IMG/VR virus record: IMGVR_UViG_3300013021_000001
Origin: a virus
Taxonomy: Duplodnaviria > Heunggongvirae > Uroviricota > Caudoviricetes
Strand: one strand, 5' to 3'
DNA: 44,547 nucleotides
Part shown: positions 12,466 to 38,580 of the stretch, one piece after another
How the letters are laid out: each line of letters begins with the position of its first letter
How positions within the stretch are numbered: position 1 is the stretch's first letter
Notes under the pieces: generated by a model
What the model was told of the DNA's origin: nothing
Database searches by the model: none
The model's input: the letters and a program-made list of their open reading frames with translations, nothing else
Made by a program: the position numbers and the translations under genes

Positions 12466-12975
12466 ATGAAAGAAATAGAAAAGAAATTTATTGTCAGCAA
12501 AAATTATGAGTTTCCTGCTGAATATAAAAGTTATGATATTATGCAAAAGTATTTACACATAGACTCTATTTCTGAAATTAGAATCAGACAAAAGCTTCAT
12601 TTCAACAAGAAAGGAAAGTTTACTAAAAAGACTCAAAAGATAACTATCAAAGAAGGTAGTGGAGATATCAGAGAAGAAACAGAAATCAGTATCTCGCCAT
12701 CATTATTTGATAATCTTTGGGAAGTAAACAACAAAAGGGCTATTCATAAACTCAGGTATCTAATACCATATAAGGGTAAAATTATAGAAGTTGATGAGTT
12801 TCCTTTATATGATAACTTTCCTATTTTTGCTGAAATTGAATTTGACAGTAAGGAAGAGATGGAAAATTTTGAGTTTCCATACTGGTTTGACAGGGAGACA
12901 AAAGTAAAAAACAAGGATATTTTTATGTTTATTAACAGCTATGAGGCTGATAAAGATATAAATGACATATTGTAA
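12466..12975 (+). CDS. CYTH-domain (adenylate cyclase/triphosphatase family) protein
   Basis: EIEKKF, YL...EIRIRQ, TIK, IREETE, IHKLRY, IEVDEF, FAEIEF motifs; start after GGGGG RBS. Confidence 0.85.
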   Translation: MKEIEKKFIVSKNYEFPAEYKSYDIMQKYLHIDSISEIRIRQKLHFNKKGKFTKKTQKITIKEGSGDIREETEISISPSLFDNLWEVNNKRAIHKLRYLIPYKGKIIEVDEFPLYDNFPIFAEIEFDSKEEMENFEFPYWFDRETKVKNKDIFMFINSYEADKDINDIL

Positions 12976-13102
12976 TGAAGGTATGAAGTTAAGAAGCTAT
13001 ATTTCTAGCTCCATATATTCATAAGTTCACAAGAAGCTAAACTAATATCCAAAAAATAAAAAGAGAGGAATGATAAAAGCTTAGCTAAAAGGAGGATAAA
13101 AA

Positions 13103-13285
13103 ATGAAAAATGCAGTTGTAATTTGTAGAACAGAGGACAAAAAGCATCATTTAATTTTAGAAGAGGGAGAAGTTGTTAGAGTTGTAGGAAGAAGCAAAAA
13201 TAAAGTAAAAGTAAATACAGAAGATGGTAAAACATTATGGTGTAACTTCAGAAATTTAAGTGAAAAATTAGTATTTAGGGGTTAA
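13103..13285 (+). CDS. Small SH3-like hypothetical protein
   Basis: AGGAGG RBS; GEVVRVV...VKVNTEDGKTLW beta pattern. Confidence 0.6.
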   Translation: MKNAVVICRTEDKKHHLILEEGEVVRVVGRSKNKVKVNTEDGKTLWCNFRNLSEKLVFRG

Positions 13286-13352
13286 GGAAAATTTCAAAGG
13301 GGTTAAAAGGCCATATTTATTATGGCCAGAAATTATATTTATTTTATATTAT

Positions 13353-13381
13353 TTGAAAAATGTAGTGAAGTATGATATAAT
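13353..13381 (+). promoter_or_regulatory. Consensus SigA-type promoter driving the RNA array
   Basis: TTGAAA-17 nt-(TGA)TATAAT, 20 bp upstream of the first RNA. Confidence 0.88.
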
Positions 13382-13400
13382 AAACTTAACAGATAAACAA

Positions 13401-13546
13401 GTCATTGGTGGCGGAATAAGTAGACGCTATAATGGTAAGGCATTCGGTGGGAAACATAATAACCAGAGGGGCATATGCTTACACAATTAAAAGCAGCTCT
13501 GCAACATGCGAATGTTCATGTGAGGTGTAAACCCTCACCCATGACA
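13401..13546 (+). ncRNA. tRNA-like RNA with Leu-type D arm, non-canonical T loop and a 93-nt structured middle replacing the anticodon/variable arms
   Basis: GTCATTGG/CCCATGAC acceptor-like stem; GCGGAATAAGTAGACGC D arm; TGAGG-TGTAAAC-CCTCA T arm. Confidence 0.65.
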
Positions 13547-13556
13547 TTATATATAT

Positions 13557-13602
13557 GCCGGTTCGGGAAACTACAGGTTAGTTACCTGCCCTGCCGGCTC
13601 CA
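13557..13602 (+). ncRNA. tRNA minihelix-like RNA ending in TCCA
   Basis: GCCGGT/GCCGGC plus GGG/CCC stem, CAGG-TTAGTTA-CCTG arm, 3' TCCA. Confidence 0.45.
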
Positions 13603-13611
13603 AAATTTAAA

Positions 13612-13696
13612 GGAAGAGTGTCCGAGTGGTTTAAGGAGACAGTTTGCTAAACTGTTACCGACAGGTTCAGGGGTTCAAATCCCCTCTCTTCCTCCA
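13612..13696 (+). tRNA. tRNA-Ser(GCT), canonical
   Basis: GGAAGAG/CTCTTCC acceptor; ACAGT-TTGCTAA-ACTGT; long variable arm; TTCAAAT T loop; encoded CCA. Confidence 0.95.
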
Positions 13697-13702
13697 TTTT
13701 TT

Positions 13703-13814
13703 CGGGAGATAGCTCAGCAGGCTAGAGCAGCTAAAATATGTCTTGTATAAGGTATTAACAGCAATCACATCCCATTAAAGGAGCGTGTCGCAGGTTCGAA
13801 TCCTGCTCTCCCGG
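13703..13814 (+). tRNA. Interrupted tRNA-like gene; 38-nt ACAGCAA module inside the anticodon stem; loop CATTAAA (apparent TTA)
   Basis: CGGGAGA/TCTCCCG; GCTC/GAGC D stem; GCT[13733-13770]CC/GGAGC; GCAGG-TTCGAAT-CCTGC. Confidence 0.85.
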
Positions 13815-13823
13815 TCATTTTTA

Positions 13824-13915
13824 GTCGCAGTGATAGTTTTTGGCAATTTAAACTATCTTCAAATAAATGCGACAGAATTAAGATTCCTCTACAAAATTGC
13901 CAGAGGGCTTAATTC
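13824..13915 (+). ncRNA. Two-hairpin RNA with complementary loops (kissing-loop candidate)
   Basis: GTCGCA/TGCGAC and GATAGTTT/AAACTATC; GAATTAAG/CTTAATTC and CCTCT/AGAGG; loops TGGCAATTT and AAATTGCCA. Confidence 0.55.
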
Positions 13916-13916
13916 A

Positions 13917-14040
13917 AAATTAATCTGTCAGCAACATGTAAACAGCCTGGCTACAATATTAAAAACAAACTGCCAGGCTTAGGAAATACATGGAAACAAC
14001 TGCCGAGCTCTGTGGGCTAGCTGTTGCGACGGGTTAATTT
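13917..14040 (+). ncRNA. Branched structured RNA, unidentified
   Basis: 13-bp closing stem AAATTAATCTGTC/GACGGGTTAATTT; GCAAC/GTTGC; CATGTA/TACATG; AGCCTGGC/GCCAGGCT. Confidence 0.6.
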
Positions 14041-14042
14041 AC

Positions 14043-14161
14043 GGTGAGGTAGCCAAGATGGAAAGGCTCCGGCGCAAAAAGAAAGTGTGACTAGTTTAGT
14101 CACCAACAGCAATTCTTCTATGTCAAGCCGGGATTCGCGGGTTCAACTCCCGTCCTCACCA
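14043..14161 (+). tRNA. Interrupted tRNA-like gene, apparent anticodon GTC (Asp); ~46-nt ACAGCAA module at the 5' edge of the anticodon loop
   Basis: GGTGAGG/CCTCACC; CCGGC/GCCGG; insert with GTGACTA-GTT-TAGTCAC hairpin then AACAGCAA (14105-14112); TTCAACT T loop. Confidence 0.85.
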
Positions 14162-14173
14162 ATTACAATTTTT

Positions 14174-14291
14174 CGAAGGGTAGCTCAACTGGTAGAGCAG
14201 CTAAAATATATGCTTAGTTTTAAGCGTTAACAGCAATCAATTTTCCTTGAGGAGGAGCTTGCTGCAGGTTCGAATCCTGCCCCTTCGACCA
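14174..14291 (+). tRNA. Interrupted tRNA-like gene, apparent anticodon GAG; 42-nt ACAGCAA module inside the anticodon stem
   Basis: CGAAGGG/CCCTTCG-ACCA; GCT[14203-14244]CC-TTGAGGA-GGAGC; short variable loop atypical for Leu. Confidence 0.85.
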
Positions 14292-14299
14292 TTTTTTAA

Positions 14300-14422
14300 G
14301 GAGAGATTCTCCTAATGGCAAAGGTACCGGCCAAAATATGTTTAGATTAAACATTAACAGCAAAAAAAGTGAAAAGCCGGCGGTCGATGACCATGGTGGT
14401 TCGAATCCACCACTCTCCACCA
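14300..14422 (+). tRNA. Interrupted Ser-like (class II) tRNA body with apparent anticodon GAA; ~37-nt ACAGCAA module
   Basis: GGAGAG/CTCTCC-ACCA; CCGGC/GCCGG; ATGTTTA-GAT-TAAACAT hairpin then AACAGCAA (14356-14363); long variable arm GGTC-GAT-GACC. Confidence 0.8.
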
Positions 14423-14459
14423 ACTTTAGGAATTAAAGATTAATTTTTTGTAATTTTTA

Positions 14460-14537
14460 AAGACGGCACACAGCAACCAAACTATTATATAATAAAAGAC
14501 GAATAAGGCTGACACTTTTTTATCCCTGAGCCGTCTT
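14460..14537 (+). ncRNA. Free-standing ACAGCAA stem RNA A
   Basis: AAGACGGC/GCCGTCTT stem, ACACAGCAACC immediately 3' of the 5' strand; internal CTGACAC loop on a weak stem. Confidence 0.7.
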
Positions 14538-14542
14538 GTTAT

Positions 14543-15913
14543 AGATTTTAGGCACTAGAAAACCTAGTAGGCTTGCCCCTATGGATGAATAGTACCTAAT
14601 TTTGAAGTAACTCATTGTAATATATAATATTAGTATAGGAGGTGAAGATAATGATTAAGAAGTTCAAGCCAATCAACAAAGCATATAAATTTAGAATTTA
14701 TCCTAATCAAGAACAACAAGAGTTAATTGATAAAACAATAGGTTGTAGTCGATTCATCTATAATGAATTTCTGGCAAAGTCTAAAGATAATCAATATAAA
14801 TCTTATTCTAAAAACTCTAAAGAGTTAACTCAACTAAAGAAAGAATATACTTGGCTTAAAGAAGTAGATTCTATAGCATTACAACAAAGTCTTAAAGACT
14901 TAGATAGAGCTTTTAAAAACTTCTTTAGTGGTAAATATAACTTTCCTAAGTTTAAGTCTAAAAGAAAAGCTAGATTATCTTATCGCACTCAAAAATTTAT
15001 TAGACCTAGTGGTAGCACTAACATTGAGATTAATGATAATAAAATCAAACTACCTAAGCTATCTTGGGTTAGATTCGCTAAATCTAAAGAGGTTAAAGGT
15101 AAAATTAATAATGTTACAGTTTCTAAATCTAAAGTAGGCAAATATTATATCTCAATTAATGTTAGTCAAGTCTTAGTAACTACTGTTAAAGACAATCAAG
15201 GTGAATTAGGATTAGATTTGGGTATTAAAGACTTTCTAACTACATCTAATGGTGAACATATATCTAACCCTAGACACTTATCGAAATATCAAGATAAACT
15301 AGCTAAACTACAAAGAAGATTAGCTAAAAAACAGAAATTCTCTAACAATTGGTATAAACTTAAAAAGAAAATTGCCAAAGTGCATACTAAAATCAAAAAT
15401 GTAAGATTGGACTTCCTTCACAAATTATCTACTAGATTAGTTAAGGAGAATCAACTGCTAGTCATAGAAGATTTAAATGTGAAGGGGATGATTAAAAATT
15501 CTAAACTGGCTAAACATATCGCAGATTGTAGCTGGTCTAAGTTTACTACTATGCTTGAATATAAAGGAAAATGGTATGACTGCATTTTACACAAAGTAAA
15601 TCGCTTTTTTGCTAGTAGTCAAACTTGTAATATATGTGGTACTAAAAACCCTAAAGTCAAAGATTTGTCTGTCAGAGATTGGACTTGTAGCTGTGGTGCA
15701 ACTCATAACAGAGATACAAATGCTAGTCTAAACCTCTTAAAACAAGGTAAATTAGACTTAGGACTTAGATAGATTACATACTGTCGGACTGACAGGAATT
15801 TACGCTTTTGGAGAGAGCATAAGACCTAACTTAATCTGATTAAATAATTAGCTTTAAGTAGGCAATTCTCGTTGAAAAAAGAATCCCCGCAGGCTTGCCT
15901 CGGGGTAGGTCAA
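14543..15913 (+). mobile_element. Non-autonomous IS200/IS605-family (IS1341-like) element, tnpB only
   Basis: Related subterminal hairpins (AGGCTTGCC core) at ~14559-14585 and ~15880-15905; right end GAAT...TCAA; TTAT just left of the left end; no tnpA. Confidence 0.85.
14642..15772 (+). CDS. tnpB: RNA-guided endonuclease TnpB
   Basis: KAYKFRIYPN HTH, GLDLGIK RuvC-I, VIEDLNVKGM RuvC-II, SSQTCNICG...CSCG Zn finger, HNRDTNASLN RuvC-III. Confidence 0.97.
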   Translation: MKIMIKKFKPINKAYKFRIYPNQEQQELIDKTIGCSRFIYNEFLAKSKDNQYKSYSKNSKELTQLKKEYTWLKEVDSIALQQSLKDLDRAFKNFFSGKYNFPKFKSKRKARLSYRTQKFIRPSGSTNIEINDNKIKLPKLSWVRFAKSKEVKGKINNVTVSKSKVGKYYISINVSQVLVTTVKDNQGELGLDLGIKDFLTTSNGEHISNPRHLSKYQDKLAKLQRRLAKKQKFSNNWYKLKKKIAKVHTKIKNVRLDFLHKLSTRLVKENQLLVIEDLNVKGMIKNSKLAKHIADCSWSKFTTMLEYKGKWYDCILHKVNRFFASSQTCNICGTKNPKVKDLSVRDWTCSCGATHNRDTNASLNLLKQGKLDLGLR

Positions 15914-15930
15914 TAAAGGGCGATATCTTG
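15773..15930 (+). ncRNA. Predicted TnpB omega/reRNA (scaffold to 15913, guide from 15914: TAAAGGGCGATATCTT...)
   Basis: Position at the IS right end as established for TnpB systems; the scaffold 5' end may overlap the tnpB 3' end. Confidence 0.65.
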
Positions 15931-16029
15931 GTGTTAGTTTATCTTTATGATTTTGTTCATTATAATATATTCTTTCGAACTTGCCGGTGCTTTTAAACCC
16001 GGTTAATTTTGTATAAAGAGGTGTAAAAA

Positions 16030-16851
16030 TTGTTTATAGCAGAAGTTGGTATTAACCACAACGGAAATTTAGAGTATGCCTATGAGTTAATAGATATGGC
16101 ATATAAAGCTGGAGCAGATGTAGTTAAATTTCAGAAAAGAAACCCTAAAAAGTGTGTGCCCAAAGACCAGTGGCATAAAAAGAAAAAAACACCGTGGGGT
16201 GAGATGGACTATATTGATTATAAATACAGAATGGAATTTGGTTATAGCGAATATGTAGCACTGAATGCTTACTGTCACAAGCTGGGAGTTAAATGGACAG
16301 CAAGTGTATGGGATATTGAATCTCTTGAATTTCTAACTGATTTTAATGTGCCGTTCATAAAAATTGCTAGTGCCTCAATCACAGATATGAAGCTTTTAGA
16401 AGCTGTAAGAAAGACAGGAATCCCTGTAGTTTTATCCACTGGTATGAGTACAGAAGAAGAAATTGATAAAGCAGTTAATGTTTTTGAAGGATATGAAGAT
16501 AAGTTAAGTATCATGCACTGCAACAGCAGTTATCCATCAGCTGAGAATGAGCTTGACTTAAGAATAATTGAAAGACTTAAAGAAAAGTATCCTTTAAATA
16601 TTATAGGTTACAGCGGCCACGAAAAAGGGATTCAACCGACAATAGCAGCTAAAGTTTTAGGAGCTGAGATAATTGAAAGACATATCACTCTAGATAAGGA
16701 TATGTGGGGCAGCGACCACAGTGCAAGTCTAGAATACAAAGAGCTAAAAGAGCTTATCGACAATCTTAACAGAGTTGATAACTGGCTCGGGAGTGATAAT
16801 ATTAAAGTTTATGAATCTGAAGAAAAAGTAAAAGAAAAACTTAGAAAATAA
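16030..16851 (+). CDS. neuB: N-acetylneuraminate synthase (NeuB/SpsE) family protein, lacking the C-terminal SAF domain
   Basis: FIAEVGINHNG, VKFQKR, KIASA, LSTGMS, MHCNSSYP, GYSGHE, IERHITLD...GSDH. Confidence 0.92.
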   Translation: MFIAEVGINHNGNLEYAYELIDMAYKAGADVVKFQKRNPKKCVPKDQWHKKKKTPWGEMDYIDYKYRMEFGYSEYVALNAYCHKLGVKWTASVWDIESLEFLTDFNVPFIKIASASITDMKLLEAVRKTGIPVVLSTGMSTEEEIDKAVNVFEGYEDKLSIMHCNSSYPSAENELDLRIIERLKEKYPLNIIGYSGHEKGIQPTIAAKVLGAEIIERHITLDKDMWGSDHSASLEYKELKELIDNLNRVDNWLGSDNIKVYESEEKVKEKLRK

Positions 16852-16859
16852 AAATCTTA

Positions 16860-16923
16860 AAGGCGCCAACAGCAAACTTACTAAATCAAACTTCCAATTT
16901 GAATCCAATAGTAATGGTGCCTT
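16860..16923 (+). ncRNA. Free-standing ACAGCAA stem RNA B displaying a Gly(TCC) anticodon stem-loop
   Basis: AAGGCGCCA/TGGTGCCTT; ACAGCAA; TTACTA/TAGTAA; TCAAA-CTTCCAA-TTTGA. Confidence 0.8.
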
Positions 16924-16931
16924 GTATATAT

Positions 16932-17062
16932 GGCAGTATAGCTCAACTGGTAGAGAGCAAACAAAGTTAATGGGCATAGGCCGGCGGGCCCTTACAGCAA
17001 ACTACAACTAACAATTCTATGTAAAAGAAAAGACGTAGGTTCAAATCCTGCTACTGCCACCA
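16932..17062 (+). tRNA. Interrupted tRNA-like gene, apparent anticodon GTA; ~55-nt ACAGCAA module between D arm and anticodon stem
   Basis: GGCAGTA/TACTGCC-ACCA; GCTC/GAGC; GGCC/GGCC hairpin, TACAGCAA (16993-17000); TTCT-ATGTAAA-AGAA; TTCAAAT T loop. Confidence 0.8.
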
Positions 17063-17107
17063 TCAGCCGGCAATTAAATTAAGTTAACCAACACTCCTTT
17101 CAAATTA

Positions 17108-17173
17108 AAGACAGATGCAGCAACCAATTCTTATGAAGGTATCATAAAACCCGCGAAATGCGGATACTGTCTT
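17108..17173 (+). ncRNA. Free-standing (G)CAGCAA stem RNA C
   Basis: AAGACAG/CTGTCTT; GCAGCAACC; internal hairpins TTATGA/TCATAA and CCGC/GCGG. Confidence 0.7.
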
Positions 17174-17198
17174 GTAGTAGAGTCTTAGGAATTAAATT

Positions 17199-17253
17199 TA
17201 GGCACAATCAGCAACCAAATCAAGGACTGTAAATCCAACAAAATATGTGCCTA
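17199..17253 (+). ncRNA. Free-standing CAGCAA stem RNA D displaying a Tyr(GTA) anticodon loop; directly upstream of the DUF2828 gene
   Basis: TAGGCACA/TGTGCCTA; ATCAGCAACC; GGA-CTGTAAA-TCC. Confidence 0.8.
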
Positions 17254-17281
17254 GTATAAAAACAAAAGGGGGATTATTAAT

Positions 17282-18787
17282 ATGTCAAATAAATTTTTAG
17301 ACGCAATGGAAGATAAAGTTAATTACACAGCAACAGAAAATGGTGCAACAGCAAAACATACAACTAAAGATAACCTACTCGATTTCTTTGCTCAGGTGGG
17401 AGCTTTAAGAAACAGGAATAAAGAAGATATTATAAGGCTTTTTGATAAGGCTTTAACAGAAGATGACCTTCTAGCAGTAAAAACTCTTTTTTATGCCAGA
17501 AATGTTAGGGGTGGGCTAGGAGAAAGAAGAATATTTAGAGTTATTTTAAAATATCTGACACAGGTAAAGCCTGAGGTAGTTCTAAAAAACTTAGAACACA
17601 TACCTCATTATGGTCGATGGGACGATTTATATGCCTTATTTGATACAAGACTTGAAGGCTATGCAGCAAACTTTATGAAAGCCCAGTTCTTTAAGGATAT
17701 CAATTCTGAAAAACCAAGCTTATTAGCAAAATGGCTTAAATCAGAAAATGCAAGCTCAGACGAAACAAAAAGACTTGCCAGAAAGACCAGAAAACATTTT
17801 GAGATGACCGCAAGAGGATATAGAAAAACACTTTCTAAGCTGAGAAAGAAAATAGGTGTTGTCGAAAGAAAAATGTCTAATAATGACTGGGAAGATATTG
17901 ACTACTCATCTGTTCCTTCAAGAGCACAAATGATTTACAATAATGCTTTTGAAAGACATGACCCTGAAGGCTACCATGAATATATTGAAAATGTTAAGTC
18001 TGGAGAGGACAAAATTAATGCCTCAACTTTATATCCTTATGATTTAGTAAGAAAAGTTATCGGTCATGGTTGGGGCCATTCAGTTTCTGAAAGTGAAAGA
18101 GATGTTTTAAATGAGCAGTGGAAAGCATTACCTGATTATATCAATGATAAAAATGAAAATTCTATTTGCGTTGTAGATACTTCAGGCTCTATGATGAGCT
18201 CAGATGGGTTGCCACTTCATATTGCCCTTTCATTAGGATTATATATGGCAGAAAGAAACTCAGGACCCTTTAAAGATAGGTTTATTACCTTCTCTGCCAG
18301 TCCTGATTTAGTAAAAGTAGAAGGCAGTGATTTTGTGCAGAAAATTAAGAACATGAGAAGAGCTCACTGGGATATGAATACCGATATCGAAGCTGTATTT
18401 AATCTTATTTTAGATACTGCTATAGAAAATCATCTCCATCAGGATGAAATACCTCAAAAGTTATACATTATTTCTGATATGGAATTTGACCAGTGTACAA
18501 ATAATAGTTATGGACTTAGTTCTCGTAACAAAGTAACTAAAACACTTTTTGAAAAGTTAAAGGAATCATTCAAATATTATGGCTACAAAATGCCGGATTT
18601 AGTCTTCTGGAATGTTGAAGCAAGAAATGAAGTTTTTCAGTTTGACAAAGACGAAAGAGGATTCCAGCTTGTAAGCGGAGCTTCTCCAGTTGTTTTTGAG
18701 CACACAATGAAGGGTGAGTTTGTTTCCGCCTACGACTTGATGCTCGATGTAATCACAGACGAACAGTACGATAGAATTACAGTTTAA
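17282..18787 (+). CDS. DUF2828-family / TROVE(Ro60)-like protein with C-terminal vWA domain
   Basis: TENGA start, LFYARNVRGGLGER, YGRWDDL, AKWL, SVPSRA, LYPYDLV; MIDAS VVDTSGSM, FITFS, NTD, ISDMEFD, VFWNV. Confidence 0.88.
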   Translation: MSNKFLDAMEDKVNYTATENGATAKHTTKDNLLDFFAQVGALRNRNKEDIIRLFDKALTEDDLLAVKTLFYARNVRGGLGERRIFRVILKYLTQVKPEVVLKNLEHIPHYGRWDDLYALFDTRLEGYAANFMKAQFFKDINSEKPSLLAKWLKSENASSDETKRLARKTRKHFEMTARGYRKTLSKLRKKIGVVERKMSNNDWEDIDYSSVPSRAQMIYNNAFERHDPEGYHEYIENVKSGEDKINASTLYPYDLVRKVIGHGWGHSVSESERDVLNEQWKALPDYINDKNENSICVVDTSGSMMSSDGLPLHIALSLGLYMAERNSGPFKDRFITFSASPDLVKVEGSDFVQKIKNMRRAHWDMNTDIEAVFNLILDTAIENHLHQDEIPQKLYIISDMEFDQCTNNSYGLSSRNKVTKTLFEKLKESFKYYGYKMPDLVFWNVEARNEVFQFDKDERGFQLVSGASPVVFEHTMKGEFVSAYDLMLDVITDEQYDRITV

Positions 18788-19302: not shown

Positions 19303-20223
19303 TTGATGGATAAAGATAAGTTAGAGGAATTAAGAGAGTACAATAAAATTTATATTTTAGGCAGTAGTAGCAATCAAGAGATTACAAATTACAAAGAAGA
19401 TGAAATTGTAATTGAAGAAAAAATTGACGGCAGTAACTTTAGGTTCTGGAGAGAAGGAGACAGGATTGTATATAGTTCCAGAAAAGTTAAAGATGTCAGA
19501 CCTCGTGATGGATGGGGCAAACAGATTGAATACCTAAATAAAAAGCTTGATGTAAATGCTCTTGGCAGAGATATTATTTATGTCGGAGAGGCAATGAAAA
19601 AACACATAGTAAATTATGATTTTGATAATTATCCACCATTTATAGGGTTTGACCTTCTGGATAAAGAAACTGGAATGCCACTTGATTATAAAGTCGCCAA
19701 AAAGACTTTTGAAAGTCTGGGTTTAGAATTTGTAAATATCTTATTTGAGGGAACAATGGAAGAATATCTTGGGATGGACAGAGATAAACTTTTAGAAATT
19801 TCTAAGTACAACTCAAAAAAGCCTGAAGGTTATGTTATTAAAAATTATAACAGGTTAAGCCAATACAATGAGCCTCTATTTGCCAAAGTTTTAAATGATG
19901 AGTATTTGGAAAGACAAAAAGCTAAAGCTAAAAAGCCAAAGCCTAAAGAAACAGACACTCCTTTAGCAGTTGAGCTTTATGTAAATGAGGCGAGAATTAA
20001 AAAGATGATAGCTAAAATGGTTGTTGATGAAGGACATAAACTTGAAAGAACGCTAATGCATAAGCTTATCCCGAGAGTTATCAAGGATTTTTTAAGAGAA
20101 AATATTCTTGAAATCTATGAGGATAATAGAATAAAAGATGTAAACTTTAATATTCTACACAAAGAAGTTCCAAAAAGATGTATTAAAGTTTTGGATAAGA
20201 TGATTGAAAGTAATGCATTCTAA
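19303..20223 (+). CDS. ATP-dependent RNA ligase, Rnl2-like
   Basis: Motif I EEKIDGSNFRF, YVGE, FIGFDL, EGYVIK, FAKV; helical C-terminal domain. Confidence 0.85.
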   Translation: MMDKDKLEELREYNKIYILGSSSNQEITNYKEDEIVIEEKIDGSNFRFWREGDRIVYSSRKVKDVRPRDGWGKQIEYLNKKLDVNALGRDIIYVGEAMKKHIVNYDFDNYPPFIGFDLLDKETGMPLDYKVAKKTFESLGLEFVNILFEGTMEEYLGMDRDKLLEISKYNSKKPEGYVIKNYNRLSQYNEPLFAKVLNDEYLERQKAKAKKPKPKETDTPLAVELYVNEARIKKMIAKMVVDEGHKLERTLMHKLIPRVIKDFLRENILEIYEDNRIKDVNFNILHKEVPKRCIKVLDKMIESNAF

Positions 20224-36943: not shown

Positions 36944-37324
36944 ATGAAAACCAAAAAGTTTGATGATATATTTTACAGAGATAAACTTGCTGATGAGATA
37001 GCAAATTCTAGAATTGAAATGAGCGGAGATGACCATGAAGAAGGTTCAAATTTATGGGGTGTAGAAATTCTTGTTGACGGAGCTTTGGGACAGTTTAAAA
37101 CACAGGCTCTACTTGATATTTTCACAGAAGAAGGACTGACAGAAGAAGAATATAAAAAAGACACCTTTAAATACATGGACGAGTGGACTTTATATATCAG
37201 ACAGGATGTTGAAGAAATGCTCAATGAAGAAATGTCTGAACACTTAGAAGAAGAGGAGTTTCTTGTTTTAGAACCGGGAGATTCAGGAGATATGTGGATA
37301 GCATTACAGAAAGGTGATTTTTAA
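36944..37324 (+). CDS. Hypothetical acidic protein
   Basis: Start after GGAGGG. Confidence 0.75.
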   Translation: MKTKKFDDIFYRDKLADEIANSRIEMSGDDHEEGSNLWGVEILVDGALGQFKTQALLDIFTEEGLTEEEYKKDTFKYMDEWTLYIRQDVEEMLNEEMSEHLEEEEFLVLEPGDSGDMWIALQKGDF

Positions 37325-38580
37325 TGTACACTTTTAATGGTTTATATACAGGCTTGCCTGTTAAAGTCTGGATTGATGAAAGTGAAGATTTAGATGATAA
37401 CACATTTAAAGAAGCAGTAGAAATATCAAAGCTCCCATACGCTAAATCACACATAGCATTGATGCCTGATGTACACGCTACGGGCTACCATATGCCAGTT
37501 GGCGGGGTTTTAGCTACAAAGGATGTTATAGTACCTGATGCAGTCTCGAACGATATAGGGTGCGGTGTCGCCTTTATACAGACAGATATTGAGGCCTGCT
37601 TTATGCAAACAACACACATGGATTCAGGAACAGTTGCTCAGGAACTGGTTGGGTCAATTATGAGAGATTTACCAACAGGATTTCAGCACTGCAAAAAAGA
37701 AGAAAACAAAGATAACATGGAGCTTCTAAATCTAATTAATAATTTAAACTATGGTGGAGATATTGAAGAAAAACCTCTTTTAATGGAAGCTGTCATGGAG
37801 TCTATGGAAATTGTTGGAAGTCTAGGAGGTGGCAACCACTTCGTTGAGCTACAGGAAAACAAAGAGGGTAATCTTGCAATTATGATTCACACCGGCTCCA
37901 GAAGTGTTGGCGCTAAAATAAACTCTCATTTTAGTAAGTTAGCAAAAAGTTTAAATAAAAAATGGTATGTTGATGTTTTATCTGATGATGTAACAATGCC
38001 CTTTTTACCACTCGATAGTGATGAGGGTCAGGAATATATGAAATTCATGAATTTTGCCTTAAAAGTTGCTGAGTTAAATAGAGATAAAATTATGGATTTA
38101 GTTCTAAATAAGACTATTGATTTACTTAAAAAAAGAGGTCTTATTGATAATTATAAAATTACAAGAAGATTAAATGTCCACCACAATTATGCTGCCTATG
38201 AAAATGTGAACGGTGTTAACTACATGGTGCATAGGAAAGGAGCTGTGCGGGCCAGAGGTACAGATATGGTGCCTATTCCAGGAGCAATGGGTTCATCTTC
38301 CTTTATTGCTCAGGGTCTTGGGAATGATGCTTCATTCAAGTCCTGCAGCCATGGAGCCGGGAGAACTCACACCAGAACTGCAGCCAAAGAAGAATATTCA
38401 GTGCAAGAGGTTATGGAAGATTTAAAAGAAAAGAATGTTGTACTTGGTAAAACTAATAAAAAAGATGTTGCAGAAGAATACATGAAGGCATATAAAGACA
38501 TTCATCAGGTTATGGAAAATCAAAAAGATTTAGTATCCGTGATTGATGAACTAAAAACTATTGCAGTTATTAAAGGTTAG
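37324..38580 (+). CDS. rtcB: RtcB-family RNA 3'-phosphate/5'-OH ligase
   Basis: MPDVH, NDIGCG, GGGNHFVE, HTGSR, HHNY, HRKGA, PGAMG, SCSHGAGR. Confidence 0.96.
   Translation: MYTFNGLYTGLPVKVWIDESEDLDDNTFKEAVEISKLPYAKSHIALMPDVHATGYHMPVGGVLATKDVIVPDAVSNDIGCGVAFIQTDIEACFMQTTHMDSGTVAQELVGSIMRDLPTGFQHCKKEENKDNMELLNLINNLNYGGDIEEKPLLMEAVMESMEIVGSLGGGNHFVELQENKEGNLAIMIHTGSRSVGAKINSHFSKLAKSLNKKWYVDVLSDDVTMPFLPLDSDEGQEYMKFMNFALKVAELNRDKIMDLVLNKTIDLLKKRGLIDNYKITRRLNVHHNYAAYENVNGVNYMVHRKGAVRARGTDMVPIPGAMGSSSFIAQGLGNDASFKSCSHGAGRTHTRTAAKEEYSVQEVMEDLKEKNVVLGKTNKKDVAEEYMKAYKDIHQVMENQKDLVSVIDELKTIAVIKG

What the first reader, a model, noticed from the sequence alone, without database searches (positions are those of the whole stretch)
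13703..17062. Five tRNA bodies carry a hairpin-ACAGCAA module inserted in the 5' side of the anticodon arm
Seen: genes at 13703, 14043, 14174, 14300 and 16932 have near-intact acceptor, D and T arms. Each has a 37-55 nt insert made of an A-rich linker, a hairpin of variable sequence, and then (T/A)ACAGCAA. Insert sites differ (inside the stem at ~29/30 twice, at the loop edge ~31-33 twice, at ~26/27 once), unlike canonical introns. Hairpin sequences vary while pairing and ACAGCAA are kept, which points to selection on structure plus a protein-binding motif. The only uninterrupted tRNA here is Ser(GCT). Inference: either a new class of protein-dependent tRNA intron joined by phage RtcB, or stable Y-RNA-like tRNA chimeras tethering a protein next to an anticodon loop.
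Basis: partly seen in the sequence, partly recalled or inferred. Interest (0 to 1): 0.92.

Follow-up and report, generated by a model that had tools for sequence, protein, structure and literature searches.

The report
tRNA-shaped partner RNAs of Ro60-like protein
Five tRNA-shaped genes in this phage carry a conserved "handle" (a 7-bp hairpin followed by UAACAGCAA) that marks a widespread RNA family I found neither in Rfam nor in the papers searched, which travels with a Ro60-like ring protein encoded next door, so they are most likely protein-bound tRNA mimics rather than tRNAs with a new kind of intron.

Summary
Four genes (13703, 14043, 14174, 14300) have tRNA acceptor, D and T arms. Each has an insert in the 5' side of the anticodon arm: an A-rich linker ending AAU, a 7-bp hairpin of free sequence, then (U/C)AACAGCAA. 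The fifth (16932) is a looser variant.

The module is not private to this phage. It occurs in more than 100 IMG/VR phage stretches, and its helix covaries strongly. It appears either as a closed hairpin inside a tRNA, as here, or as the terminal stem of permuted tRNA-like RNAs and of short RNAs that show bare anticodon stem-loops.

It travels with the DUF2828/vWA gene: 39/49 module-bearing records against 5/48 tRNA-bearing controls. That gene's model has a Ro60 fold, and the RNAs usually lie just upstream on its strand, as at 17282 here. RtcB (1/49) and the splicing endonuclease (0/49) do not travel with it. Anticodon loops often mismatch the tRNA bodies or lack U33.

Best reading: unspliced Y-RNA-like tRNA chimeras bound by the Ro60-like protein. 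The RtcB-intron reading is not supported.

Earlier notes of this scan report the same handle-protein pairing in many other genomes. I did not find it in Rfam or in the papers searched.

The parts
13612..13696 (+). Ordinary tRNA-Ser(GCT), the only uninterrupted tRNA in the window
   Evidence: ARAGORN; Rfam tRNA 57.4 bits
13703..13814 (+). t1: tRNA-shaped RNA with the handle at 29/30. Linker AAAAU 13733-37, helix 13738-44/13749-55, UAACAGCAA 13756-64. Loop CAUUAAA (UUA with A33) 13773-79. No CCA.
   Evidence: Rfam tRNA 43.7 bits; handle model R1 39.2 bits, E 6.5e-7; coordinates
13917..14040 (+). Larger stem-closed RNA with UCAGCAAC directly after a 10-bp or longer closing helix (13919-28/14029-38)
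   Evidence: Helix scan; sequence; not analysed further
14043..14161 (+). t2: tRNA-shaped RNA. The anticodon stem CCGGC/GCCGG is intact and the handle lies inside its loop (31/32). Helix 14087-93/14097-103, CAACAGCAA 14104-12. Last 7 loop bases AUGUCAA (GUC).
   Evidence: Rfam tRNA 44.3 bits; ARAGORN intron mode gives Asp-GTC with a 46-nt insert at 31/32; R1 27.9 bits
14174..14291 (+). t3: paralogue of t1 with the handle at 29/30. Helix 14210-16/14221-27, UAACAGCAA 14228-36. Loop UUGAGGA (GAG, a Leu anticodon on a short-variable-arm body). ACCA encoded.
   Evidence: Rfam tRNA 47.4 bits; R1 39.2 bits, E 6.3e-7
14300..14422 (+). t4: long-variable-arm tRNA-shaped RNA with the handle in the anticodon loop. 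Helix 14338-44/14348-54, UAACAGCAA 14355-63. Loop remnant reads GAA (Phe), which mismatches the class II body. ACCA encoded.
   Evidence: R1 33.0 bits, E 2e-5; ARAGORN intron mode. Not hit by the Rfam tRNA model.
14460..14537 (+). Free-standing handle RNA: stem 14460-67/14530-37, ACA, CAGCAAC
16860..16923 (+). Free-standing handle RNA: stem 16860-68/16915-23, CAGCAA 16870-75. Displays a canonical anticodon stem-loop UCAAA-CUUCCAA-UUUGA (Gly UCC).
   Evidence: MFE -15.9, z -2.97
16932..17062 (+). t5: tRNA-shaped RNA with a divergent handle at 26/27. Linker ending AAU 16960-71, irregular GC hairpin 16972-91, UUACAGCAA 16992-17000. Complete stem-loop UUCU-AUGUAAA-AGAA (GUA) 17015-29 on a short-variable-arm body. 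ACCA encoded.
   Evidence: Rfam tRNA 43.6 bits; R1 only 11.3 bits
17108..17173 (+). Free-standing handle RNA: stem 17108-14/17167-73, AUG, CAGCAAC
   Evidence: z -2.72
17198..17254 (+). Free-standing handle RNA: stem 17198-206/17246-54, CAGCAAC. Loop CUGUAAA (Tyr GUA-like). Ends 28 nt before the DUF2828 start codon.
17282..18787 (+). DUF2828/DUF7788 protein (501 aa): helical-repeat ring plus vWA domain with a complete MIDAS. Ro60 fold. Candidate protein partner of all the handle RNAs.
   Evidence: Pfam; phrog_850 'RNA-binding protein', E 6e-145; AF2 model pLDDT 85; top 11 PDB matches all Ro60/TROVE; invariant D299 S301 S303 T367 D399
19303..20223 (+). ATP-dependent RNA ligase (PF09414). An RNA-repair neighbour, not a consistent companion of the handle.
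   Evidence: 20/49 module-bearing records
37324..38580 (+). RtcB RNA ligase. Present here, but not a companion of the handle family in general.
   Evidence: 1/49 records

Best explanation
The five genes belong to a large family of phage non-coding RNAs defined by a shared handle. The handle is an A-rich strand ending AAU, a 7-bp helix of any sequence, and then the single-stranded word (U)AACAGCAA. These RNAs are the likely partners of the Ro60-like DUF2828/vWA protein encoded just downstream at 17282-18787.

In most family members the handle's helix is formed by the two ends of the RNA. The cargo in between is then a circularly permuted tRNA-like domain or a bare anticodon stem-loop. In this window's five genes the topology is turned inside out. 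The helix is closed by a 3-4 nt loop, and the whole handle is grafted into the 5' strand of the anticodon arm of a tRNA-shaped RNA in normal gene order.

Inferred mechanism:
1. The array at 13.4-17.3 kb is transcribed with the DUF2828 gene.
2. The tRNA-like ends are trimmed by host tRNA-processing enzymes.
3. The handle stays in the RNA and is bound by the ring protein.
4. The result is a particle that holds out an L-shaped tRNA look-alike with an anticodon-like loop beside the protein.

By analogy with Ro60 and YrlA, the tRNA-like part would recruit or trap proteins that recognise tRNA. Given the RNA-repair genes nearby, my guess is bait or adaptor for host tRNA-cutting defence nucleases or for repair enzymes.

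Shown: the anatomy, the covariation, the family's spread, the linkage to DUF2828, and the Ro60 fold of the model. Inferred: expression, absence of splicing, direct binding, and the biological role.
For: (1) The handle recurs widely. A search for TAACAGCAA followed at 15-45 nt by a T-loop word found more than 119 IMG/VR stretches. In 62 of 76 non-redundant contexts a helix, mostly exactly 7 bp, abuts the word directly. It is either a closed hairpin or pairs with a strand 84-118 nt downstream.

(2) The helix covaries. There are 59 different helix sequences, 96.7% paired against 54% with shuffled partners. On the closed-hairpin alignment, pairing is 96.4% against 58%, all 7 pairs show changes on both sides, and slid controls give 36-49%.

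(3) The flanking AAAAU is conserved although the search did not select for it.

(4) A model built without the window finds t1-t4 at E 6e-7 to 4e-4. It gives 16 hits in 154 kb around DUF2828 genes, all on the gene's strand. It gives none in 681 kb of control phage tRNA loci.

(5) DUF2828 is in 39/49 module-bearing records, and in 18/19 of those at least 90% complete. In tRNA-bearing controls it is in 5/48, and in 1/14 of the near-complete ones. Fisher p = 2e-12.

(6) For about 17 of 20 DUF2828 genes, same-strand CAGCAA units lie within 30-500 nt upstream. Three of the five control positives show this too, and a fourth has units just downstream of the gene.

(7) The DUF2828 model (pLDDT 85) matches Ro60 structures as its top 11 PDB hits, TM 0.5-0.6 over the full length. 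The MIDAS residues are invariant.

(8) Free-standing units carry canonical anticodon stem-loops but no acceptor stem, so the handle is not tied to making tRNAs. Examples: Gly UCC and Tyr GUA here; Asn, Thr, Cys, Ser and Lys elsewhere.

(9) Bodies and loops mismatch. A Leu GAG and a Tyr GUA anticodon sit on short-variable-arm bodies (t3, t5). A Phe GAA anticodon sits on a long-variable-arm body (t4). A33 replaces U33 in t1 and in relatives.
Against: No binding data.

Some features look like real pre-tRNAs:
- In t1, t3 and relatives (L006 Val-UAC, L016 Thr-UGU, L107 Asp-GUC), three bases before the handle and two after it together restore a perfect 5-bp anticodon stem around a 7-nt loop with U33 and a purine at 37.
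- t3, t4 and t5 encode ACCA.
- Many permuted relatives keep ACCA inside the loop that closes the acceptor stem.

Ten of 49 module-bearing records show no DUF2828. Most are fragments, but one is a complete 401-kb phage that has RtcB instead. t5 fits the handle model poorly.
Confidence: 0.65

Rival explanations
1. The module is a new kind of tRNA intron. In the permuted relatives it would be the junction of permuted tRNA genes. An unknown nuclease or the RNA itself cuts at both edges, a ligase (phage Rnl or RtcB, or a host enzyme) joins the exons, and functional tRNAs result. The Ro60-like protein might act as the splicing platform.
For: Split anticodon stems are restored exactly by joining the flanks: t1 and t3 here, and L006, L016 and L107. 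ARAGORN in intron mode gives a clean Asp-GTC for t2. ACCA is encoded in t3-t5 and inside the acceptor loops of many permuted relatives. This phage has both an RNA ligase and RtcB.
Against: RtcB is in 1/49 records, the splicing endonuclease in 0/49, and an Rnl-type ligase in only 20/49. No bulge-helix-bulge can be drawn; an invariant sequence word is conserved instead. The insertion site (26/27 to 33/34) and the spacer after CAGCAA (4-14 nt) both vary, so there is no fixed cut site. The same handle closes RNAs with only an anticodon stem-loop or only a top half. Class I/II body and anticodon mismatches and A33 would give mischarging or non-decoding tRNAs. No Rfam ribozyme or intron family matches.
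Confidence: 0.12
2. The RNAs are stand-alone decoys for host anticodon nucleases or other tRNA-binding enzymes. The handle serves only for stability or processing, and the linkage to DUF2828 is no more than shared regulation.
For: Many different anticodon loops are displayed, and homologous scaffolds differ only in the triplet: L085 UAA, L088 UAU, L024 UUU. The neighbourhood holds RNA-repair genes.
Against: An invariant 9-nt single-stranded word next to a helix of free sequence is the signature of a specific binding site. The near-obligate, same-strand, adjacent linkage to one protein family across very different phages mirrors rsr-yrlA.
Confidence: 0.12
3. The module is a DNA- or transcript-level signal (promoter, terminator or RNase site) that happens to lie in and between tRNA genes.
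For: It recurs in non-coding DNA of tRNA arrays. Long-range versions are often followed by G and a U-rich run.
Against: It sits inside tRNA bodies, which are single folded units. Compensatory changes keep a 7-bp RNA helix. It is strand-specific and co-oriented with DUF2828.
Confidence: 0.03

Closest known systems
Ro60 (Rsr) with Y RNAs of the YrlA type in bacteria and phages (Chen et al. 2014, PMC4201824; Rfam RF02553), and Thermus phage phiLo Ro60 with Yrl1/Yrl2 (PMC12135203)
   Same: A ring-shaped helical-repeat plus vWA protein is encoded beside small RNAs on the same strand. The RNAs combine a protein-binding stem with a tRNA-like domain. Permuted relatives have the same order as YrlA (T arm, closed acceptor hairpin, D arm) and match the YrlA model weakly over that core (33.6 bits). 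RNA-repair genes lie nearby.
   Different: The protein is Pfam DUF2828/DUF7788, not TROVE, and shows no sequence match to Ro60. The handle is a 7-bp helix plus single-stranded UAACAGCAA, not the bulged helix with the CGAA motif. Scores are far below the YrlA gathering score (24.7 and 33.6 against 69). These RNAs keep anticodon-like loops. In this window the tRNA is not permuted: the handle is a closed hairpin inside the anticodon arm, and the tRNA's own ends are free.
Class I RNAs of dictyostelid social amoebae (Kjellin et al. 2021, PMC7919456)
   Same: As the paper describes them: a short stem of about 6 bp joining the 5' and 3' ends, with structure but not sequence conserved. An unpaired 11-nt motif lies directly after the 5' strand, with near-invariant T3, C6, C9, A10 and A11, which fits ..U..C..CAA as in UUACAGCAA. 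The rest is variable. The RNA starts with AAG and ends with CUGU. The free-standing units here start (A)AAG... and end ...CUUGU or CCUGU.
   Different: They are eukaryotic, were reported as unique to Dictyostelia, and carry no tRNA-like cargo. Their known binder is an RRM protein. I compared against the paper's description only, not against sequences. Whether dictyostelids encode DUF2828 was not tested here.
Archaeal/eukaryal tRNA introns at non-canonical positions, and permuted tRNA genes (reviewed in PMC4090602)
   Same: Short inserts at varied positions of the anticodon arm. Relatives with circularly permuted gene order. Exon flanks that can restore the anticodon stem.
   Different: No bulge-helix-bulge. 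An invariant sequence word. No splicing endonuclease (0/49) and almost no RtcB (1/49) in the phages. The same module occurs in RNAs that are not tRNAs.

Membership tests
CAGCAA-handle RNAs linked to DUF2828 (family defined by this scan; found neither in Rfam nor in the papers searched) | A helix of about 7 bp and free sequence that abuts (U)AACAGCAA directly, with an A-rich strand ending AAU before the other strand | tested here: met
   t1-t4: exact 7-bp helices and R1 scores of 27.9-39.2 bits. t5 meets the word and the AAU but has an irregular helix (11.3 bits).
CAGCAA-handle RNAs linked to DUF2828 (family defined by this scan; found neither in Rfam nor in the papers searched) | Encoded on the same strand as a DUF2828/vWA gene and close to it | tested here: met
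   The gene is at 17282-18787 and the last unit ends at 17254. Family-wide: 39/49 against 5/48.
CAGCAA-handle RNAs linked to DUF2828 (family defined by this scan; found neither in Rfam nor in the papers searched) | The RNA is bound by the DUF2828 protein | not testable with these tools
   Needs pull-down or EMSA. No RNA-protein complex prediction was available.
Y RNA / YrlA (Rfam RF02553) | Match to the family model at or above the gathering score, including the Ro-binding terminal stem | tested here: not met
   Best match in the window is 24.7 bits against a gathering score of 69, and it spans two adjacent genes. A permuted relative scores 33.6 bits over model positions 24-84 only.
Y RNA / YrlA (Rfam RF02553) | The partner protein is a Ro60/TROVE ring protein | tested here: inconclusive
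   The fold is Ro60-like, but Pfam assigns DUF2828/DUF7788, not TROVE, and there is no sequence-level match to solved Ro60 chains.
tRNA (Rfam RF00005) | Acceptor, D and T arms matching the tRNA model | tested here: met
   43.6-47.4 bits for four of the five genes. The gene at 14300 was seen only by ARAGORN in intron mode.
tRNA (Rfam RF00005) | Continuous 5-bp anticodon stem with a 7-nt loop, U33, and an anticodon that fits the body class | tested here: not met
   All five are interrupted by 38-55 nt. Default ARAGORN finds none of them. t1 has A33. t3, t4 and t5 have class/anticodon mismatches.
Protein-spliced tRNA introns (bulge-helix-bulge type) | A bulge-helix-bulge at the exon-intron borders, with a splicing endonuclease and RtcB-type ligase available | tested here: not met
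   No conserved pairing exists around the borders; a sequence word is invariant instead. EndA is in 0/49 and RtcB in 1/49 module-bearing phage records. Host enzymes were not examined.
Self-splicing or self-cleaving RNAs (group I introns, small ribozymes) | Match to a known catalytic core | tested here: not met
   No Rfam intron or ribozyme family matches in 12500-18500 even at E up to 5. The inserts are 38-55 nt long.
Dictyostelid Class I RNAs | A terminal stem of about 6 bp, an 11-nt motif after the 5' strand (T3, C6, C9, A10, A11), an AAG start and a CUGU end | tested here: inconclusive
   The free-standing units fit the published description. No Class I sequences were compared, and the tRNA-embedded forms have no terminal stem.

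The most novel reading that the evidence does not exclude
The handle is a removable element. The Ro60-like particle would be the platform of a phage tRNA maturation pathway not known before. It would cut out the handle from ordinary-order genes and circularise, then re-open, the permuted ones, releasing working tRNAs only during infection. That would be a third, protein-guided kind of tRNA splicing, and the first permuted tRNA genes in viruses of bacteria.
Probability: 0.1. Interest if true: 0.95.

Novelty: new variant of a known kind. Interest (0 to 1): 0.75.

Why it matters
Ro60 and its Y RNAs are an old puzzle, known from human autoimmunity and from bacterial stress responses. This finding points to a second, much more varied branch of that system.

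In this branch a divergent Ro60-like protein (DUF2828, function unknown, also present in eukaryotes) is paired with a modular RNA family. One constant handle carries swappable tRNA parts: whole tRNA shapes, top halves, or bare anticodon loops.

This window shows the extreme case, a handle planted inside otherwise complete tRNAs. That case gives a clean experimental system. One protein and a 9-nt word can be tested for what the particle captures.

If the tRNA parts are baits for tRNA-cutting defence nucleases, this would be a new phage counter-defence strategy. The likeness of the handle to the unexplained Class I RNAs of social amoebae suggests where to look for their partner protein. It also warns annotators that these genes are neither tRNAs nor pseudogenes.

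Tried and rejected
Splicing remains untested.
- A first loose helix scan at all CAGCAA sites had too high a background and was dropped for a strict one that requires the helix to abut the word.
- Brute-force removal of all possible inserts followed by ARAGORN was too permissive to assign anticodons or junctions. I relied on reading the sequences and on ARAGORN's intron mode.
- Rfam gave no family for the module, at gathering score or at E-value thresholds, in the window or in 12 related loci.
- Ribozyme idea: no hammerhead, twister, pistol, hatchet or HDV-like match. No conserved core was recognised by eye.
- Bulge-helix-bulge idea: no consistent pairing could be drawn at the borders.
- Literature: searches for permuted tRNA in phages, DUF2828, tRNA introns with RtcB in phages, ROT/TROVE and the 11-nt word found no description of these RNAs. 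Two look-ups of the Burroughs and Aravind 2016 RNA-repair paper failed because it is not held.
- AlphaFold DB cluster search returned only DUF2828/DUF7788 entries with organisms hidden, so the presence of the protein in dictyostelids could not be checked.
- Phage GenBank blastn of the locus found only TnpB relatives.
- The sequence search of the DUF2828 protein against PDB chains found nothing. The Ro60 likeness rests on the fold.

Full report
**What is there.** The window is a phage-like contig; no genome is held for it. Between 13.4 and 17.3 kb lies a + strand array of small RNA genes. It is interrupted by an IS605-type TnpB element (14642-15772) and a NeuB-family gene (16030-16851). It is followed at once by a DUF2828/DUF7788 gene (17282-18787), an RNA ligase (19303-20223), PhoH and, 20 kb on, RtcB.

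Default ARAGORN sees one tRNA, Ser(GCT) at 13612-13696. Rfam's tRNA model also matches 13703-13814, 14043-14161, 14174-14288 and 16932-17059. Each of these matches spans a 53-71 nt unaligned block in place of all or part of the anticodon arm. The gene at 14300-14422 is seen only by ARAGORN in intron mode.

**Anatomy of the insert.** I mapped every part. In t1-t4 the insert has three pieces: an A-rich linker ending AAU, a perfect 7-bp hairpin with a 3-4 nt loop and a different sequence in each gene, and then UAACAGCAA (CAACAGCAA in t2). A spacer of 5-8 nt follows, then the rest of the anticodon arm.
- In t1 and t3, three stem bases (GCU) precede the insert and two (CC) follow it, so the site is 29/30.
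- In t2 and t4 the 5-bp stem is intact and the insert fills the loop.
- In t5 a whole small stem-loop lies after the insert (26/27), and the hairpin is irregular.

**More than chance, and not private.**
- In 62 of 76 non-redundant contexts a helix, mostly exactly 7 bp, abuts the word. Shifted controls rarely show this.
- Across 79 instances there are 59 different helices, 96.7% paired against 54% with shuffled partners. All four Watson-Crick pairs occur at every position. The unselected flank AAAAU is conserved.
- On a 16-sequence alignment of closed-hairpin forms, pairing is 96.4% against 58%, and all 7 pairs change on both sides.
- A covariance model from those 16 sequences, none from this window, finds t3, t1, t4 and t2 at 39.2, 39.2, 33.0 and 27.9 bits. 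It scores t5 at only 11.3 bits.

**One handle, two topologies, many cargos.** Reading the relatives shows that the same junction occurs in two forms.
- As a closed hairpin inside an ordinary-order tRNA, as here. Other examples are L006, whose flanks restore a Val-UAC arm, and L003.
- As the terminal stem of the RNA. In this form the RNA begins with one strand of the helix, continues with UAACAGCAA, then the anticodon arm, variable region, T arm and 3' acceptor strand. A short loop follows (often ACCA plus 1-10 nt), then the 5' acceptor strand, D arm, the AAU linker and the other strand of the helix.

The second form is the gene order of YrlA. The YrlA model matches its T-acceptor-D core weakly (33.6 bits).

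Other members carry only an anticodon stem-loop, or only an acceptor/T-arm minihelix (L009). The window itself has four to five such free-standing units: 14460-14537, 16860-16923 with a perfect Gly-UCC stem-loop, 17108-17173, 17198-17254, and perhaps 13917-14040.

**The partner.**
- Whole-record searches show DUF2828 in 39 of 49 module-bearing phage records, and in 18 of 19 that are at least 90% complete.
- In 48 control records chosen only for a common tRNA D-arm word, it is in 5, and in 1 of 14 near-complete ones. Fisher p = 2e-12.
- I fetched 20 DUF2828 genes with flanks, including the five control positives. In about 17, same-strand CAGCAA units lie 30-500 nt upstream of the start codon, often several in a row.
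- The closed-hairpin model gives 16 hits in these 154 kb, all on the gene's strand. It gives none in 681 kb of control loci.
- An AlphaFold model of the window's protein, built from 21 of these sequences (pLDDT 85, pTM 0.83), has Ro60 structures as its eleven best PDB matches: Xenopus, human, Deinococcus and Thermus phage phiLo. TM is 0.5-0.6 over the full length. vWA domains follow in the ranking. The MIDAS residues are invariant.
- PHROGs already calls the family 'RNA-binding protein'.
- The protein shows no sequence similarity to Ro60 and is not in Pfam TROVE.

**Intron or stable chimera?**

For splicing:
- The flanks of t1, t3 and several relatives restore exact 5-bp stems around 7-nt loops with U33 and a purine at 37.
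- ACCA is encoded in t3-t5 and inside many permuted acceptor loops.

Against splicing:
- RtcB is in 1 of 49 records, and that record has no DUF2828 match.
- The splicing endonuclease is in none.
- Rnl-type ligase is in 20 of 49.
- There is no bulge-helix-bulge and no ribozyme match.
- The insertion site and spacer lengths vary.
- The handle also closes RNAs that cannot become tRNAs.
- Loops and bodies disagree. Leu-GAG and Tyr-GUA anticodons sit on short-variable-arm bodies, although bacterial tRNA-Leu and tRNA-Tyr have long arms (established knowledge). A Phe-GAA anticodon sits on a long-arm body.
- A33 replaces the near-universal U33 in t1 and in relatives.
- Homologous scaffolds differ only in the triplet (L085, L088, L024).

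An unspliced tRNA with a helix protruding from the anticodon stem would not fit the ribosome's decoding sites (inference). These RNAs are therefore best read as tRNA look-alikes held by a protein. I put the tethered-mimic reading at about 0.65 and splicing at about 0.12. No reads could be examined.

**Relation to what is known.** Ro60 with YrlA-type Y RNAs, which mimic tRNA and are encoded beside rsr in bacteria and phages, is the closest system (PMC4201824). A phage Ro60 with two upstream Y-like RNAs bearing the canonical CGAA motif was characterised in 2025 (PMC12135203). The present system works like these but fails membership on three counts: a different protein family at sequence level, a different handle, and sub-threshold model scores.

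Earlier notes of this scan report the same CAGCAA-handle/DUF2828 pairing in many other genomes, and they pointed me to the Class I RNAs of dictyostelids. The paper's description (6-bp terminal stem, unpaired 11-nt motif next to the 5' strand with T3, C6, C9, A10 and A11 fixed, AAG start, CUGU end; PMC7919456) fits the free-standing units well. I compared no sequences. From memory, unverified, the Class I motif reads CCUUACAGCAA.

I found no paper describing these phage RNAs.

**What this window adds.** It holds a compact set of the inside-out form. Here the handle is a closed hairpin grafted at different points of the anticodon arm of complete tRNA shapes with free, partly CCA-bearing ends.

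**Verdict.** It is a new variant of the Ro60/Y-RNA kind of particle. The function remains inferred.

Noticed in passing
window 14545-15915: An IS200/IS605-type element sits inside the RNA array, right after the free-standing handle RNA that ends at 14537. It has TnpB (376 aa, 14642-15772; OrfB_IS605 plus Cas12f-like TNB domains) and related hairpins at both ends (aggcttgcccctatgg / aggcttgcctcggggtagg).
   Followed up: partly
window 16030-16851: A NeuB-family (sialic acid synthase-like) gene of 273 aa lies between RNA genes of the array. It is an odd neighbour for RNA genes.
   Followed up: no
window 13401-13602: Upstream of tRNA-Ser lie further tRNA-like pieces without the CAGCAA word. Other first-stage notes describe a tRNA-like shell around a ~93-nt domain and a 46-nt acceptor/T-arm minihelix ending UCCA. 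I did not analyse them.
   Followed up: no
L047, L013, L010 (10497), L007, L077 (IMG/VR loci): Circularly permuted tRNA-like genes in which the 3' acceptor strand is followed by ACCA, 1-10 nt, and then the 5' acceptor strand. The CCA end is thus kept inside a closing loop. This is the strongest hint that some family members might be opened into aminoacylatable RNAs.
   Followed up: partly
window 13773-13779; L077/L035; L243, L249, L250: Anticodon-like loops with A (or G) at position 33 instead of the near-universal U recur in unrelated members: CAUUAAA, CAGUAAA, AAGCCAA.
   Followed up: partly
L009, L027, L059, L070: A member whose cargo is only the tRNA top half. The acceptor strand GCCAGUG is followed directly by the handle, then a T arm, CGCUGGC and ACCA. 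It has no D arm or anticodon arm.
   Followed up: no
L016 (record G010, 401 kb, complete): An exception to the linkage. This phage has permuted handle RNAs but no DUF2828 match, and it is the only one of the 49 with RtcB.
   Followed up: no
L003 (record G001), 73029-73751: The DUF2828 match here is interrupted by in-frame TGA codons (open frames of 146 and 155 aa). This could be a broken gene or a recoded phage.
   Followed up: no
L047 2793-2904; L068 9965-10265; L016 7902-8312: The tRNA arrays of these phage contigs hold other structured RNAs: RAGATH-33 (135 bits) and phage-encoded tmRNAs.
   Followed up: no
L085, L088, L024: Homologous permuted scaffolds share the same anticodon stem (UCGC/GCGA) and differ essentially in the triplet (UAA, UAU, UUU), as if the displayed anticodon were being swapped.
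   Followed up: partly
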